Positions 4,115 through 54,874 of a DNA stretch of 64,000 bases are shown one piece after another (within the stretch, counting starts at the first letter, position 1; each line of letters begins with the position of its first letter). Source of the DNA: Shigella phage ESh28; the sequence record ON528738. One strand, written 5' to 3'. Both the position numbers and the translations under genes were made by a program. The notes beneath the pieces are model-generated. The model was given only the letters and a program-made list of their open reading frames with translations. It did no database searches and was not told the DNA's origin.

Positions 4115-4122
4115 TATAAATA
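4115..4122 (+). promoter_or_regulatory. T4 late promoter core TATAAATA
   Basis: Exact tataaata 25 nt upstream of the ORF starting at 4148; rI is known to be late-expressed. Confidence 0.5.
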
Positions 4123-14612: not shown

Positions 14613-15542
14613 ATGAAAACTCGTAAACATTATATTGATTATTTTGACAGTCTTATTACTAAACACCGTAATTATCAGATCGGGCACAGAGCAGTAATCA
14701 ATAATATTCTTCGTGATTTCCTTCAATATGTTGGCCAGGAAAATCATATCTGTAAAGATACTCAAAACGCTTATTCTCATTCGTTAGGCAATTTGCTTCA
14801 ATGGTTTAAACGTTCTCGTCTGTTATCTTCTACTGTAGCTAGTGATAACATTAAAAACTTTATGAAGCCGAGCTTCATTAAATCTGAGACATCTATAACC
14901 GATTTGGTTGAATTTACTATTGTTAACGATGTTAAAAAGACCCATTTGGCTGATTGGTTATCTACCATTCCCGAAACTAAATTTGCTGATAAATTCGCTT
15001 GTCAATTCAATGACCAAGTGAATATGCTTTTTAAGCATGCTCGTAAACTATTTACCGCGGGCGATGACCGTACAAATACAGTTCATGTTAAGGATTGGGT
15101 TATTGCTGATGAAGTAACACACAAGCCAGGTGGTTCATCAGTATTAATTAATATCCAGGTTCCTTATTATTACTCACGTAATCTCGGCACCATGACAGCT
15201 AGAGAAATTAATAAGCACAACAAAACTATTCGTTCGTTGTCTTATAAACTCTGCACGATGGTGGAGATGATGGACGTAGTGGAAATGTATGATGAAACCG
15301 AAGATAATGGTTCAATGTTATACAGTTCACGCATTCTAATTAAACTGAAGAACCCTAATACATATAAGACAGTTGTAAAAGAGCCTAAAGTAGAAAAGGT
15401 TGATAATCTGAGTGAAGAACGTGAATATCTCAATGCCCGTTTGACTGAAGTTGAAAAACAAATTGCAGAACACACCAAATTGTTAAAATCTCTTAATGCA
15501 AAAGCAAATGGTTTACGTAATGCTATTGAGGTATTGAAATGA
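14613..15542 (+). CDS. hypothetical protein with C-terminal coiled coil, 309 aa (family member 4 of 4)
   Basis: Track ORF; C-terminal [44 protein letters not shown]. Confidence 0.6.
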   Translation: MKTRKHYIDYFDSLITKHRNYQIGHRAVINNILRDFLQYVGQENHICKDTQNAYSHSLGNLLQWFKRSRLLSSTVASDNIKNFMKPSFIKSETSITDLVEFTIVNDVKKTHLADWLSTIPETKFADKFACQFNDQVNMLFKHARKLFTAGDDRTNTVHVKDWVIADEVTHKPGGSSVLINIQVPYYYSRNLGTMTAREINKHNKTIRSLSYKLCTMVEMMDVVEMYDETEDNGSMLYSSRILIKLKNPNTYKTVVKEPKVEKVDNLSEEREYLNARLTEVEKQIAEHTKLLKSLNAKANGLRNAIEVLK

Positions 15543-15856
15543 AAAAGCGTCTATTAGAAGACATTGCAGCTTCAAGTAATTCCAGTTTAATTAAAATTAT
15601 TATGGCCGGTGAAGAAGACGATATGGAAATGCGTGGAAAGATTCACGGCTGCGACGATCTAGACTTTAAACCTCCTGCTTGGGATGCTATTATGGCTATG
15701 GTTGAACGTCGCGAAAGGGCTTCTAAAAACGTTCCTAATTGTCCTGAATGCGGTACTGAACAGGTTCAATTGGTCCATTGGCAGACTAGTAATCTTCGTT
15801 ATAAATGCCGTCATTGCAAACACCGATTTAACCGAGAAGAAAATGACAAAGCGTAA
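15539..15856 (+). CDS. zinc-ribbon protein, 105 aa
   Basis: Track ORF; CPECG...CRHCKHRF four-Cys motif. Confidence 0.5.
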
Positions 15857-17716: not shown

Positions 17717-18190
17717 ATGTTATTGACTGGCAAATTATATAAAGAAGAAAAACAGAAATTTTATGATGCACAAAACGGTAAATGCTTAATTTGCCAACGA
17801 GAACTAAATCCTGATGTTCAAGCTAATCACCTCGACCATGACCATGAATTAAATGGACCAAAAGCAGGAAAGGTACGTGGATTGCTTTGTAATCTCTGCA
17901 ATGCCGCAGAAGGTCAAATGAAACATAAATTTAATCGTTCTGGCTTAAAGGGGCAAGGTGTTGATTATCTTGAATGGTTAGAAAATTTACTTACTTATTT
18001 AAAATCCGATTACACCCAAAATAATATTCACCCTAACTTTGTTGGAGATAAATCAAAGGAATTTTCTCGTTTAGGAAAAGAGGAAATGATGGCCGAGATG
18101 CTTCAAAGAGGATTTGAATATAATGAATCTGACACCAAAACACAATTAATAGCTTCATTTAAGAAGCAGCTTAGAAAGAGTTTAAAATGA
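17717..18190 (+). CDS. 49: endonuclease VII (Holliday junction resolvase)
   Basis: 157 aa, MLLTGKLYKEEKQKFYDAQNGKCLICQREL with Cys-rich zinc site; matches T4 gp49. Confidence 0.9.
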   Translation: MLLTGKLYKEEKQKFYDAQNGKCLICQRELNPDVQANHLDHDHELNGPKAGKVRGLLCNLCNAAEGQMKHKFNRSGLKGQGVDYLEWLENLLTYLKSDYTQNNIHPNFVGDKSKEFSRLGKEEMMAEMLQRGFEYNESDTKTQLIASFKKQLRKSLK

Positions 18191-41581: not shown

Positions 41582-42214
41582 ATGATTTATTATATGCACA
41601 AAAATCCACCGTTTAAATACGGTAAATTTCCTGATGCACAATGTTATAACATAACGCCTGATGAAAATAACCGTGGATATCTTATTGGCACAATTTTTGT
41701 AATTGTTAAAGATAACGAAATCGTTGCCTGGGCAGATTTTAAAGGTACAACATATGATGTTAATCCGGTGCCTTTCACATATTACAATTTAATGGATTTG
41801 GCATACGATTATAATTGGTTTAATCATGACACGTTGGCTCATATTGAAGGTGTAGGATTTGACATCTCTTATTCTAGCTACTCATTGTGTCCTATGAGTC
41901 GGGCTCATAAAGAACCTGAATATTTTTCATTTAGGAAACGTGTAAACTTTAAACGCAACACAGAGTATGTCGGTGGAATCTTTGTTAAAGATAATCGAAT
42001 TACTCGCATTATTTATCCTTTGGGCTGTGGTCAAAAAGATATTGATGTTGATTTAGACTTTACTGAAAACATCATTAATCATATTGCTTCTGTGTATTTT
42101 GGTATCGATCACAAAATTGTAATATGTGGATATGAATTACCGTTTGAAGAACAACCTAAAGTAAAAGTTTCTATTGACGATCAAATTTTTAATGCTTTTA
42201 TGAATAAAGGTTAA
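41582..42214 (+). CDS. 61.2-like protein, 210 aa (possible anti-DarT factor AdfA homolog)
   Basis: Track ORF; position matches T4 61.2; shares VKDN motif and 14-aa C-terminal tail with the next ORF. Confidence 0.5.
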   Translation: MIYYMHKNPPFKYGKFPDAQCYNITPDENNRGYLIGTIFVIVKDNEIVAWADFKGTTYDVNPVPFTYYNLMDLAYDYNWFNHDTLAHIEGVGFDISYSSYSLCPMSRAHKEPEYFSFRKRVNFKRNTEYVGGIFVKDNRITRIIYPLGCGQKDIDVDLDFTENIINHIASVYFGIDHKIVICGYELPFEEQPKVKVSIDDQIFNAFMNKG

Positions 42215-42740: not shown

Positions 42741-43769
42741 ATGTCATCAATACCTTGGATTGATAATGAGTTTGCGTATCGTGCATTAGCTCATTTACCT
42801 AAATTCACACAAGTAAATAATAGTTCAACTTTTAAATTGCGGTTTAGATGCCCTGTTTGTGGAGATTCAAAAACCGACCAGAATAAAGCTCGTGGATGGT
42901 ATTATGGTGATAATAATGAAGGAAATATTCATTGTTATAACTGTAACTATCATGCACCAATCGGAATATATTTAAAGGAGTTTGAACCTGATTTATATCG
43001 TGAGTATATCTTTGAAATAAGAAAAGAAAAAGGTAAAAGTCGTCCAATAGAAAAACCTAAAGAACTTCCTAAACAACCTGAGAAGAAAATAATTAAATCT
43101 CTTCCGTCATGCGTTAGATTAGATAAACTGGCGGAAGACCATCCAATTATAAAATATGTAAAAGCTCGTTGTATTCCAAAGGATAAATGGAAATTTCTTT
43201 GGTTTACAACCGAATGGCCTAAATTAGTTAATAGCATAGCACCGGGAACATACAAAAAGGAAATTTCTGAGCCTCGTCTTGTTATTCCAATTTATAATGC
43301 TAACGGAAAAGCCGAGTCTTTTCAAGGACGCGCATTAAAGAAAGATGCTCCTCAAAAATATATCACCATCAAAGCTTATCCTGAGGCAACAAAAATTTAC
43401 GGTGTTGAACGAGTTAAAGATGGTGATGTATATGTTCTAGAAGGACCTATAGATTCGCTTTTTATTGAAAATGGTATAGCTATTACGGGTGGTCAATTAG
43501 ACCTAGAAGTTGTTCCATTTAAAGATAGACGAGTGTGGGTTTTAGATAATGAACCTCGTCATCCTGACACTATCAAGCGAATGACTAAATTAGTTGATGC
43601 AGGAGAAAGGGTTATGTTTTGGGATAAATCTCCCTGGAAATCAAAAGATGTTAATGATATGATTAGAAAGGAAGGTGCAACCCCTGAACAAATTATGGAA
43701 TATATGAAAAATAATATTGCCCAGGGGTTGATGGCTAAAATGCGGCTATCTAAATATGCTAAGATTTAA
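42741..43769 (+). CDS. 61: DNA primase gp61
   Basis: 342 aa; zinc ribbon CPVCGDSKTD...CYNCNYH and Toprim domain; matches T4 gp61. Confidence 0.9.
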   Translation: MSSIPWIDNEFAYRALAHLPKFTQVNNSSTFKLRFRCPVCGDSKTDQNKARGWYYGDNNEGNIHCYNCNYHAPIGIYLKEFEPDLYREYIFEIRKEKGKSRPIEKPKELPKQPEKKIIKSLPSCVRLDKLAEDHPIIKYVKARCIPKDKWKFLWFTTEWPKLVNSIAPGTYKKEISEPRLVIPIYNANGKAESFQGRALKKDAPQKYITIKAYPEATKIYGVERVKDGDVYVLEGPIDSLFIENGIAITGGQLDLEVVPFKDRRVWVLDNEPRHPDTIKRMTKLVDAGERVMFWDKSPWKSKDVNDMIRKEGATPEQIMEYMKNNIAQGLMAKMRLSKYAKI

Positions 43770-43966
43770 ATCAACCCAACTAAAGCAAATGCTAAATCTA
43801 CGAATGTATCAAGAGTAACTATTGGAATATTAATACCATGTGCAATTGCAACAGGTGATAGAATAAAGTTCCAGAGTAAAATTCCTACCATAGCAGAAAT
43901 AGTAAAAGCTATACGTTTTTTATTACCTTTTATGGCATTAACAAGTGCCATTAATTTTTGTACCAT
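43766..43966 (-). CDS. antisense small membrane protein, 66 aa
   Basis: Only intergenic minus-strand ORF; AAGGAGG 5 nt upstream of ATG; two hydrophobic helices; convergent with primase. Confidence 0.45.
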   Translation of the reverse strand: MVQKLMALVNAIKGNKKRIAFTISAMVGILLWNFILSPVAIAHGINIPIVTLDTFVDLAFALVGLI

Positions 43967-44039
43967 ATGTCCTCCTTATTGCTTTATATATTTATTGTAT
44001 AATTAATCTACTAACCCATGAATTGAAAGGAAAAATAAC

Positions 44040-44558
44040 ATGCCACATTTCAACGAATGTAGTCAACTGATCGAAGGTGCTGATAAAGCTCAAAATGAAT
44101 ATTGGGATATTCTCGGTGATGAAAAAGACCCGCTGCAGGTAATGCTTGACATGCAGAAATCTCTACAGATTCGTTTAGCTAAAGATAAACCTGAATATAA
44201 CCGTCATCCTGATGATTTGGCTACTGCAGGTGAAGTTGTTGATTGGCTGCGTAATCAGAAAGATTACATTGATGATGAATTCCGTGAACTTCTGACTTCT
44301 CTTGGTGGTATGAGCAATGGTGAAAAAGATGCATCTGCTGTATGGAAGCCTTGGAAGTCGCAGCATGGTGAACGCCGTGAAACTCTAATTACTGATTTGT
44401 CTCCTCAAGACCAGTTGGAAATTAAATTCGAAATGATTGATATTCTTCATTTCGTTCTGAACATGTTCCAAGGTCTTGGTCTTACGGCTGAAGAAATCTT
44501 TAAACTTTATTATCTGAAAAATGCTGAAAACTTCGCTCGTCAAGATCGAGGTTATTAA
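44040..44558 (+). CDS. 56: dCTP pyrophosphatase gp56 (MazG-like)
   Basis: 172 aa; position and length match T4 gp56. Confidence 0.8.
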   Translation: MPHFNECSQLIEGADKAQNEYWDILGDEKDPLQVMLDMQKSLQIRLAKDKPEYNRHPDDLATAGEVVDWLRNQKDYIDDEFRELLTSLGGMSNGEKDASAVWKPWKSQHGERRETLITDLSPQDQLEIKFEMIDILHFVLNMFQGLGLTAEEIFKLYYLKNAENFARQDRGY

Positions 44559-44602: not shown

Positions 44603-44610
44603 TATAAATA
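44603..44610 (+). promoter_or_regulatory. T4 late promoter core TATAAATA (soc)
   Basis: Exact tataaata about 30 nt upstream of soc ATG. Confidence 0.65.
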
Positions 44611-54291: not shown

Positions 54292-54695
54292 TGGCTATTA
54301 AATTTGAAGTTAATAAATGGTATCAATTTAAAAATAAACAAGCTCAAGAAAATTTTATTAAAGACCATATTGATAACGGAATCTATGCACGACGTTTAGG
54401 TATGGAGCCTTTTAAAATTTTAGATGTTGACTATTACGGGCGTCCTACTAAAATTGTGACATCCACAGGTGTACTTAAACGTTGTGCCGGCGCTGATATC
54501 CTTGACGAAAACTTTATCTGGCTCTCTACTAACGAAGCTGAGTTCTTTAATGAAGTGGAAAATCCATACCAAGCTTCTGAAGAGCAAGAACAGATAGAAG
54601 ATTTCACAGAATTCCCGGTCATGAAAGTTACTATCGAAAATAACGACCAGGCATGGTCCTTGTATCAGATGTTGAAAGCTCACTTTAAGGAATAA
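54291..54695 (+). CDS. hypothetical protein, 134 aa
   Basis: Track ORF; TAATG overlap. Confidence 0.5.
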
Positions 54696-54697
54696 TT

Positions 54698-54874
54698 ATG
54701 CCAATGTATGATTATAAATGCCAATCCGAAGATTGCGGGCATGAATATGAAAAAATTAAAAAGATTTCTGAACGAGAAAATGATGTTTGCCCTAAATGTC
54801 ATCGTTTGTCTACTCGTCGGCCTTCTGCTCCTAAGCATGTGAATGGTGGTTTTTACGACTTACTTAAAGGGTGA
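54698..54874 (+). CDS. FmdB-like zinc-ribbon protein, 58 aa (below track cutoff)
   Basis: MPMYDYKCQSEDCGHEYE...CPKCH matches the FmdB-family putative regulatory zinc ribbon pattern. Confidence 0.5.
   Translation: MPMYDYKCQSEDCGHEYEKIKKISERENDVCPKCHRLSTRRPSAPKHVNGGFYDLLKG

What the first reader, a model, noticed from the sequence alone, without database searches (positions are those of the whole stretch)
43766..44040. Antisense membrane-protein gene where T4 carries dam
Between primase 61 and dCTPase 56, T4 as I recall carries dam (about 780 bp). Here the gap is only about 270 bp and holds the single well-supported minus-strand gene in the window: a 66-aa two-helix membrane protein with a perfect AAGGAGG 5 nt upstream of its ATG, convergent with primase and overlapping its stop by 3 nt. 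No ORF in the window carries a DPPY adenine-methylase motif. A small membrane protein on the opposite strand of an early operon could be a holin-like, exclusion or anti-defence factor, or a toxin.
Basis: partly seen in the sequence, partly recalled or inferred. Interest (0 to 1): 0.6.

Follow-up and report, generated by a model that had tools for sequence, protein, structure and literature searches.

The report
Conserved late membrane gene dam.1
The 66-codon reverse-strand ORF is a real gene, already annotated as "dam.1" or "hypothetical protein" in hundreds of T4-like phages, that encodes a small inner-membrane protein of unknown function, and it sits beside dam in T4 rather than replacing it.

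Summary
Window 43766..43966 (-) is a 66-aa ORF with AAGGAGG 4 nt before its ATG, convergent with primase gene 61, in a 270-bp gap before gene 56. No dam is present in the window.

T4 and T2 carry the same ORF (63/66 and 66/66 identical) next to dam. It is annotated "dam.1" in T4T and RB69ORF029w in RB69, and belongs to phrog_2024. It is missing from the T4 RefSeq, T2 and JS98 annotations. The ORF is the constant element of the 61-56 interval. dam, a homing endonuclease or an extra ORF are the variable inserts.

- **Distribution:** about 700-900 phage records, in six Tevenvirinae genera, always between 61 and 56 on the opposite strand.
- **Selection:** dN/dS is 0.1-0.35.
- **Promoter:** every lineage has the T4 late-promoter core ATAAATA 19-29 nt before the ATG. 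That 7-mer occurs only 6 times in the 64-kb window, against about 39 expected.
- **Protein:** basic N-terminus, one clear transmembrane helix with invariant Trp-Asn and Pro, and a short C-terminal helix.
- **Homology:** no Pfam, NCBIfam, PADLOC or PDB relative.

Verdict: an already annotated, uncharacterised late gene for a small inner-membrane protein. Its function is not established.

The parts
43766..43966 (-). Coding sequence of the 66-aa small membrane protein, the orthologue of T4T dam.1 / RB69ORF029w (phrog_2024)
   Evidence: ORF. phrog_2024 match with E=6e-31. 100% identical to T2 and 63/66 identical to T4. dN/dS 0.1-0.35. Same position and orientation in six genera.
43971..43977 (-). 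Shine-Dalgarno sequence AAGGAGG, 4 nt before the ATG
   Evidence: Sequence. A strong Shine-Dalgarno sequence is present in all 13 orthologous loci compared.
43989..43996 (-). T4-type late promoter element AATAAATA (gp55-dependent, positions -13 to -6). The inferred transcription start is near 43983.
   Evidence: The ATAAATA core lies 19-29 nt upstream of the ATG in all 13 sequences, within otherwise unalignable DNA. The 7-mer occurs 6 times in the window against 39.3 +/- 6.4 expected. The three plus-strand copies sit upstream of soc, the endonuclease VII gene and one further ORF. A at -13 occurs at 9 of the 50 listed T4 late promoters (PMC2988020). The start site is inferred, not measured.
43932..43961 (+). 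Terminator-like hairpin (8-bp stem) plus T-run for the primase transcript, embedded in codons 1-12 of the minus-strand gene
   Evidence: Consensus scan and RNA fold. A terminator is annotated at the same place in phage fPS-90. The hairpin is specific to Tequatrovirus and absent in the other genera, so it does not explain the ORF's conservation.
43980..44003 (+). MotA-type middle promoter for gene 56 (TGCTTTA 43980-43986, TATAAT 43998-44003). It is divergent from the late promoter and interleaved with it.
   Evidence: Aligns with the mot-box and -10 of T4 promoter P(M)16.53 as annotated in X01416. A middle promoter is predicted at the same place in fPS-90.
42741..43769 (+). Gene 61 DNA primase (context). 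It is convergent with the small gene and overlaps it by 4 nt.
   Evidence: phrog_47 match with E=1e-105. 99.4% identical to T4 gp61.
44040..44558 (+). Gene 56 dCTPase (context)
   Evidence: phrog_173 match with E=2e-46. Only 74% identical to T4 gp56.

Best explanation
Shown. This is an orthologue of the gene annotated dam.1 in phage T4T. It is a conserved, protein-coding gene that lies between primase gene 61 and dCTPase gene 56 on the opposite strand in T4-like phages of enterobacteria. It occurs whether or not dam is present.

Strongly inferred from sequence. The gene is transcribed late in infection from its own gp55-type late promoter (AATAAATA at 43996..43989) and is translated from a strong ribosome-binding site.

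Inferred from sequence and model. The 66-aa product inserts in the inner membrane through one transmembrane helix (about residues 19-42). The basic N-terminus faces the cytoplasm. About 22 C-terminal residues (a Gly/Pro turn plus a short acidic amphipathic helix) lie at or beyond the periplasmic face.

Inferred mechanism. The invariant mid-membrane Trp32-Asn33, Pro38 and the small-xxx-small pair A40/G44 form a helix-helix contact surface. Through it the protein would self-associate or dock onto another membrane protein.

Function, my guess only (about 0.3). It is an accessory envelope factor of the late phase, most likely tuning membrane integrity or lysis timing. I do not think it is an essential replication or assembly protein.

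The confidence of 0.75 given for this explanation applies to the identity, late expression and membrane location. It does not apply to the functional guess.
For: Identity and distribution:
- phrog_2024 match, E=6e-31.
- Annotated dam.1 in T4T and RB69ORF029w in RB69.
- Present but unannotated in T4 RefSeq, T2 and JS98.
- 696 phage records by tblastn with the window protein and 919 with a divergent member.
- Same position and orientation in Tequatrovirus, Mosigvirus, Gaprivervirus, Dhakavirus, Kanagawavirus and Jiaodavirus.

Protein-coding selection:
- Window versus T2: 4 synonymous and 0 non-synonymous changes.
- RB69 versus F2: 6 and 2.
- JD18 versus Metamorpho: 22 and 14 (dN/dS 0.13).
- The ORF stays open at 21-55% amino-acid identity.

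Late promoter:
- The ATAAATA core is present at -19 to -29 in 13 of 13 loci.
- The motif is six-fold depleted in the window. Two of its plus-strand copies sit just upstream of soc and the endonuclease VII gene, which I recall to be late-transcribed in T4.
- Position -13 is known to vary (PMC2988020 and PMC1524935).
- T4 and the window supply the motif from non-homologous upstream DNA.

Protein features:
- Invariant W32, N33 and P38. Nearly invariant A40, G44, P48 and G64.
- AlphaFold2 model with mean pLDDT 79.5 and helices at 2-11, 15-42 and 52-63.
- 4-7 Lys/Arg before the transmembrane helix and 0-1 after it, in seven subfamily representatives.
Against: No transcript, protein or phenotype data exist for this gene in the literature I could search. 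Published T4 omics work counts reads on the NC_000866.4 annotation, which lacks the gene.

T4's own promoter reads GATAAATA, a rarer variant.

The topology and the helix-contact mechanism rest on a model and on composition, not on experiment.

The functional guess has no homology support. There is no match in Pfam, NCBIfam, PADLOC, PDB sequences or fold libraries beyond the protein's own family. Classical T4 rapid-lysis (r) screens, as I recall them, never mapped a locus here. That argues against a major role in lysis inhibition.
Confidence: 0.75

Rival explanations
1. The protein is a conflict factor. It would be a late superinfection-exclusion, anti-defence or inter-phage competition protein, acting on a variable host or competitor membrane target.
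For: It evolves much faster than its neighbours: 21-55% identity, against 60-74% for primase and 69-90% for gp56 over the same phages. One genus keeps two divergent tandem copies (TH15). Another member of that genus has lost one copy (VR20). The gene lies in a hypervariable interval that accepts dam and homing endonucleases.
Against: Only a late promoter is seen. The known T4 exclusion proteins (Imm, Sp) and most anti-defence proteins act early, by my knowledge of the field. There is no match to PADLOC or any characterised family. The gene is near-universally retained and full-length in 686 of 696 records. That is unusual for an accessory arms-race gene.
Confidence: 0.2
2. The protein is a holin, pinholin or viroporin-like protein that permeabilises the inner membrane. 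One UniRef entry for this family is labelled 'Holin'.
For: It is small, hydrophobic and late-expressed, and it has a polar Asn within the membrane helix. The OE5505 orthologue carries the UniRef name 'Holin'.
Against: No holin family in Pfam, NCBIfam or PHROGs matches it. Only one robust transmembrane segment is present, there is no charged C-terminal tail, and no endolysin or spanin gene is adjacent. By established knowledge, T4 lysis is accounted for by holin T, endolysin E, the spanins, RI and RIII. The 'Holin' label occurs once among about 120 clusters that are otherwise named hypothetical.
Confidence: 0.1
3. The main product is the RNA. A late transcript running antisense into the 3' end of primase gene 61 would silence early gene expression, and the peptide would be secondary.
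For: The genes converge and overlap by 4 nt. No terminator is predicted on the minus strand after the ORF in the window. T4 is known to transcribe both strands at several sites at different times (PMC2988020).
Against: Strong purifying selection acts on the amino-acid sequence, with invariant residues across subfamilies. In Jiaodavirus (JD18, Metamorpho) a strong GC-rich terminator hairpin follows the ORF directly, before primase or its neighbour. Antisense read-through is therefore not a conserved feature.
Confidence: 0.07
4. It is not a gene. The open frame would be a by-product of conserved regulatory DNA: the gene 61 terminator, the promoters and the oriA neighbourhood.
For: A terminator hairpin for the primase transcript lies inside codons 1-12. 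The gene 56 middle promoter, which T4 annotation associates with oriA, abuts the start. The T4 RefSeq, T2 and JS98 annotations omit the ORF.
Against: The hairpin is confined to Tequatrovirus, yet the ORF persists in five other genera. Synonymous changes are in excess. The frame stays open, with conserved W-N...P...G...P residues, at 21-30% identity. A Shine-Dalgarno sequence and a late promoter are conserved at the right distances.
Confidence: 0.03

Closest known systems
dam.1 of phage T4T (ADJ39749) / RB69ORF029w (NP_861719) / PHROG phrog_2024, function unknown
   Same: Same family, length, position (between 61 and 56), orientation, Shine-Dalgarno sequence and late-promoter core. 95% identical to the T4 copy and 100% identical to the T2 copy.
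   Different: Nothing essential differs. Here the neighbouring dam cassette is absent, so the gene abuts the gene 56 middle promoter directly.
T4 soc, a late gene embedded in an early region
   Same: A short gene in the same early block, about 0.7 kb away, driven by its own late promoter: TATAAATA at 44603-44610, 30 nt before the ATG. X01416 annotates P(L)15.32 there.
   Different: soc lies on the early strand and encodes a soluble capsid decoration protein. The gene here is on the opposite strand and encodes a membrane protein.
Small phage lysis regulators and holins (T4 RI antiholin; class II holins such as phage 21 S68)
   Same: Small size, late expression and inner-membrane location with a short periplasmic part. 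These are resemblances in kind, drawn from general knowledge.
   Different: There is no sequence or profile similarity. The architecture differs: one clear transmembrane helix, a hydrophobic C-terminus and no charged tail. It is not linked to lysis genes.
T4 Imm and Sp (small envelope proteins for superinfection exclusion)
   Same: Small envelope proteins of T-even phages. sp lies about 1-2 kb away in the same block in related genomes.
   Different: Imm and Sp are early genes on the early strand. This gene has only a late promoter, and there is no sequence similarity.

Membership tests
dam.1 / RB69ORF029w / phrog_2024 family | Full-length profile match to the family | tested here: met
   phrog_2024, E=6.3e-31, residues 2-66 on profile positions 1-65 of 65. 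tblastn identity is 100% to T2 and 95% to T4.
dam.1 / RB69ORF029w / phrog_2024 family | Position between primase 61 and dCTPase 56, on the opposite strand | tested here: met
   Window. Same arrangement in T4T, RB69, F2, VR20, JS98, Q7622, Entb_45, JD18 and Metamorpho.
dam.1 / RB69ORF029w / phrog_2024 family | Conserved residues W-N-(F/Y/L)-x4-P ... G ... P in and after the transmembrane helix | tested here: met
   W32, N33 and P38 are invariant, and A40, G44, P48 and G64 are at least 90% conserved, in 32 diverse members including the window protein.
T4 late genes (gp55/gp33/gp45-dependent) | TATAAATA-type element about 6 nt upstream of the transcription start, close to the gene | tested here: met
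   AATAAATA at 43996..43989. The core is conserved in 13 of 13 loci and the motif is six-fold depleted elsewhere in the window. The A(-13) variant is documented.
T4 late genes (gp55/gp33/gp45-dependent) | Transcript appears late and depends on gp55 | not testable with these tools
   No expression data for this ORF were found. T4 omics work uses an annotation that lacks it.
Holins (class II / pinholin type) | Match to a holin family profile | tested here: not met
   No Pfam or NCBIfam hit for the window protein, and no holin family among the weak hits of 32 members. The PHROG family is classed 'unknown function'.
Holins (class II / pinholin type) | Two or more transmembrane domains plus a charged cytoplasmic C-terminal tail | tested here: not met
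   One clear transmembrane segment. The second hydrophobic stretch is marginal, with a 12-residue helix at 52-63. The protein ends in ...ALVGLI with no basic residues after the transmembrane helix.
Holins (class II / pinholin type) | Membrane permeabilisation that releases endolysin | not testable with these tools
   This needs expression and lysis assays.
   tblastn of T4 Dam against the window gives a best E-value of 0.8. There is no DPPY motif. The only [DNS]PP[YFW] hits lie in unrelated frames.
Type I toxins / known defence or anti-defence membrane proteins | Profile match to a toxin or defence family | tested here: not met
   PADLOC gives no hits for three subfamily representatives. A single member matches Ldr_toxin at E=0.1, which is noise.

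The most novel reading that the evidence does not exclude
dam.1 may be an unrecognised functional component of T-even late-phase envelope biology. It could be a transmembrane-helix partner of the holin/antiholin machinery, or a late-acting membrane counter-measure against host abortive-infection effectors. It would have escaped 60 years of T4 genetics and all modern omics because it is tiny and absent from the reference annotation.
Probability: 0.25. Interest if true: 0.6.

Novelty: already known. Interest (0 to 1): 0.27.

Why it matters
As a discovery it matters little. The ORF is already called in hundreds of T4-like genomes and has a PHROG family.

Its practical value is as a correction. 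The T4 reference record NC_000866.4 and the T2 and JS98 records omit a gene that is conserved across at least six genera, under purifying selection, and equipped with a conserved late promoter. Transcriptome and proteome studies that count on that annotation cannot see it.

Adding it at NC_000866 17738..17938 (+) would let existing data sets show whether it is expressed. It would also put one more uncharacterised late membrane protein of the best-studied phage on the list for knock-out.

The analysis also shows that dam is the dispensable insert at this locus. A dam-less 61-56 interval is the majority state and not an anomaly.

Tried and rejected
Remote homology. I searched Pfam, NCBIfam and PADLOC with the single sequence, and Pfam with all 32 aligned members. 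I searched PDB sequences with a profile. Nothing was found beyond noise.

An exhaustive phmmer search against 1.84 billion representative proteins returned only phage homologues plus three long repeat proteins. On inspection those three are additive-score artefacts: a junk repeat, SH3b repeats and a PQQ-like propeller.

Fold search of the AlphaFold2 model against BFVD and PDB returned only family members significantly. The PDB hits were insignificant transmembrane helices of pentameric channels.

Literature searches for 'dam.1', accession numbers, locus tags, T4 small-protein ribosome profiling and T4 transcription-start maps found nothing on this gene. The Miller et al. 2003 T4 genome review was not available.

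A search for paralogues in the window with the family profile found none.

I considered whether the primase terminator hairpin inside the ORF explains its conservation, and rejected this. The hairpin is confined to Tequatrovirus.

I considered an inverted repeat in the primase 3' end (43678-43730) as the terminator of the late transcript. It is broken in T2, JS98 and JD18 without compensation, so I left it unassigned.

I checked a second candidate minus-strand ORF (54680-54838) near a TATAAATA. It lies inside a plus-strand zinc-ribbon gene, so I rejected it.

A scan of IMG/VR added only five loci.
Full report
**1. The observation**

Window 43766..43966 (-) is an ATG-initiated ORF of 66 codons. 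On the minus strand the sequence upstream reads ...ACAATAAATATATAAAGCAATAAGGAGGACAT-ATG. AAGGAGG therefore lies at 43977..43971, with a 4-nt spacer before the ATG.

The flanking plus-strand genes are primase gp61 (42741..43769) and the dCTPase gp56 (44040..44558), as confirmed by PHROG matches. The gap between them is 270 nt. The small ORF overlaps the primase CDS by 4 nt. It is the only minus-strand ORF of at least 45 aa in the 64 kb that lies outside plus-strand coding sequence and has a Shine-Dalgarno sequence.

No dam gene or DPPY motif is present in the window.

**2. What it is**

A tblastn search against 50,697 phage records finds the protein in 696 of them, 686 at 80% coverage or more. 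The T2 copy is 100% identical. Other Tequatrovirus phages are 89-99% identical, RB69-like phages are about 55%, and further genera are 38-49%.

T4 itself has the ORF. In NC_000866.4 it lies at 17738..17938 on the strand opposite to genes 61 and dam, in the roughly 310-bp 'gap' between them, and is 63/66 identical. It is not annotated there. T2 also leaves it unannotated, and so does JS98.

The T4T record annotates it as gene dam.1, a hypothetical protein. RB69 calls it RB69ORF029w. It belongs to PHROG phrog_2024, classed as unknown function (E=6e-31).

Searching with a divergent member raises the count to 919 records. The arrangement is the same in Tequatrovirus, Mosigvirus, Gaprivervirus, Dhakavirus, Kanagawavirus and Jiaodavirus: gene 61, then the small gene on the opposite strand, then gene 56. 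About 120 clusters at 90% identity exist in the 5.8-billion-protein collection. All are 41-74 aa and all come from T4-like phages.

**3. Relation to dam**

Homology between the window and T4 runs from primase through the ORF and its Shine-Dalgarno sequence to 43977. It resumes at 43998, just upstream of gene 56. Between these points T4 has about 900 bp containing dam. T2 has dam plus one more ORF at that place. fPS-90 and G50 have a homing endonuclease of about 640 bp between the gene 56 promoter and gene 56.

T4-type Dam at 90% identity or more is found in about 182 records. The small ORF at 80% identity or more is found in about 502. The small gene is therefore the constant feature of this interval and dam is one of several optional inserts.

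**4. Is it a real protein-coding gene?**

Pairwise counts show an excess of synonymous change:

| Pair | Synonymous | Non-synonymous |
|---|---|---|
| Window vs T2 | 4 | 0 |
| RB69 vs F2 | 6 | 2 |
| JD18 vs Metamorpho | 22 | 14 (dN/dS 0.13) |

Other informative pairs give dN/dS of 0.16-0.35. The frame stays open at 21-30% identity. W32, N33 and P38 are invariant, and A40, G44, P48 and G64 are nearly so, in 32 diverse members.

A rival view is that the frame is a by-product of regulatory DNA. Against this, the primase-strand terminator hairpin inside codons 1-12 (43932-43951 plus a T-run) exists only in Tequatrovirus.

**5. Expression signals**

In all 13 loci compared, the T4 late-promoter core ATAAATA lies 19-29 nt before the ATG. 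A strong Shine-Dalgarno sequence follows it, and the surrounding DNA is otherwise unalignable. One phage (Q7622) has the perfect TATAAATA.

In the window the element is AATAAATA (43996..43989). According to Geiduschek and Kassavetis (PMC2988020), A at -13 occurs in 9 of the 50 listed T4 late promoters. Nolan et al. (PMC1524935) report that -13 is poorly conserved in T4 relatives.

The 7-mer is strongly avoided in this window, with 6 copies against 39.3 +/- 6.4 expected. Two of the three plus-strand copies sit just upstream of soc and the endonuclease VII gene, which I recall to be late-transcribed in T4. The third sits just upstream of another ORF. T4 and the window provide the motif from non-homologous DNA on either side of the dam junction, which suggests that selection keeps it.

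I therefore conclude that this is a late gene. That is an inference from sequence, because no transcript data were available.

On the plus strand the same 60 bp hold a MotA-type middle promoter for gene 56 (TGCTTTA at 43980-43986, TATAAT at 43998-44003). It aligns with the annotated T4 promoter P(M)16.53. The two divergent promoters are interleaved.

No terminator is predicted after the ORF on its own strand. The late transcript probably runs antisense into gene 61. In Jiaodavirus, however, a strong terminator follows the ORF directly.

**6. The protein**

The AlphaFold2 model, built on a 32-sequence alignment, has mean pLDDT 79.5. It shows helices at 2-11 and 15-42, a loop at 43-51, and a short helix at 52-63.

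Only residues 19-42 score as a transmembrane segment. The second hydrophobic stretch is marginal. The segment before the transmembrane helix carries 4-7 Lys/Arg, and the part after it carries 0-1, in seven subfamily representatives. By the positive-inside rule this predicts the N-terminus in the cytoplasm and the C-terminus outside.

The invariant Asn in the middle of the helix, together with A40xxxG44, is the kind of surface that drives helix-helix association in membranes. This is general knowledge and an inference, not a test.

There is no relative in Pfam, NCBIfam, PADLOC, PDB sequences or fold libraries. A single UniRef label 'Holin' on one orthologue has no support.

**7. Function**

The function is not established. 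The protein is late-expressed, membrane-bound and small. It evolves faster than its neighbours: 21-55% identity, against 60-74% for primase and 69-90% for gp56. Gaprivervirus TH15 carries two divergent tandem copies, one of which is broken in VR20. The gene is almost never lost.

My leading guess is an accessory late envelope factor that works through transmembrane-helix contacts, possibly touching lysis timing (about 0.3). The alternatives are a conflict or exclusion role (about 0.2), a holin-like pore (about 0.1) and a mainly antisense-RNA role (under 0.1).

No paper in the searchable library mentions the gene. T4 omics work counts on an annotation that lacks it.

**8. Verdict**

This is a real, conserved gene that is already annotated elsewhere. 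It is ordinary in this window and does not substitute for dam. The useful outcomes are three:

- the T4, T2 and JS98 annotations should include it;
- it is very probably a late gene encoding a small inner-membrane protein with its N-terminus in the cytoplasm;
- simple experiments could now give it a function.

Noticed in passing
window 43932-43961 (+), inside the minus-strand CDS: A terminator-like hairpin (8-bp stem plus TAATTTTTG) for the primase transcript is encoded by codons 1-12 of the small gene on the other strand, so the same bases serve two purposes. It is present in Tequatrovirus only.
   Followed up: partly
window 43980-44003 (+) and 43989-43996 (-): The MotA-type middle promoter of gene 56 is homologous to T4 P(M)16.53, the promoter that T4 annotation associates with oriA. 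It is interleaved back-to-back with the late promoter of the small gene. The inferred late transcription start falls inside the MotA box.
   Followed up: partly
window 43678-43730: A long inverted repeat (AACCCCTG...CAGGGGTT, 14-bp stem) lies in the last 90 nt of primase. The fold z-score is -3.46. It is shared by T4, VR20, Q7622 and Entb_45, and varies in RB69. It is broken without compensation in T2, JS98 and JD18. Its role is unclear.
   Followed up: partly
whole window; sites at 4116, 17681, 44604 (+) and 42010, 43989, 54942 (-): The late-promoter core ATAAATA is six-fold depleted (6 copies against about 39 expected). The plus-strand copies precede soc, the endonuclease VII gene (gene 49) and a 70-aa phrog_1826 ORF. 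The minus-strand copies at 42010 and 54942 have no downstream ORF and could be antisense late starts.
   Followed up: partly
L019 (Escherichia virus TH15) 495-692 and 701-901; L005 (VR20) about 2200-2400: Gaprivervirus carries two divergent tandem copies of the small gene, one T4-type and one JS98-type. Both are intact in TH15. In VR20 the second copy has a stop at codon 2 and a frameshift.
   Followed up: yes
window 43977/43998 junction; window 44040-44558: There is a sharp mosaic boundary. Primase is 99.4% identical to T4, but gp56 is only 74% identical, lower than the value against RB69 (83%) or JS98 (90%). T4's gene 56 is therefore the unusual allele, and it sits next to segF in T4.
   Followed up: no
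L003 (fPS-90) 1280-1930; also G50, G4498 and others: Many close relatives have a homing-endonuclease gene of about 640 bp inserted between the gene 56 middle promoter and gene 56. This window lacks it.
   Followed up: partly
NC_000866.4 17738..17938 (+); LC348380.1 16642..16842 (+); NC_010105.1 about 15343..15543 (+): The reference records of T4, T2 and JS98 do not annotate this conserved gene. T4 transcriptome and proteome studies that count on NC_000866.4 therefore cannot report it.
   Followed up: yes
P0025 (phage OE5505 orthologue): One orthologue has an in-frame 3-residue deletion in the transmembrane helix (63 aa) and carries an unsupported UniRef name 'Holin'. Other stray names in the family, 'DNA packaging ATPase' and 'dCTP pyrophosphatase', look like annotation slips.
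   Followed up: no
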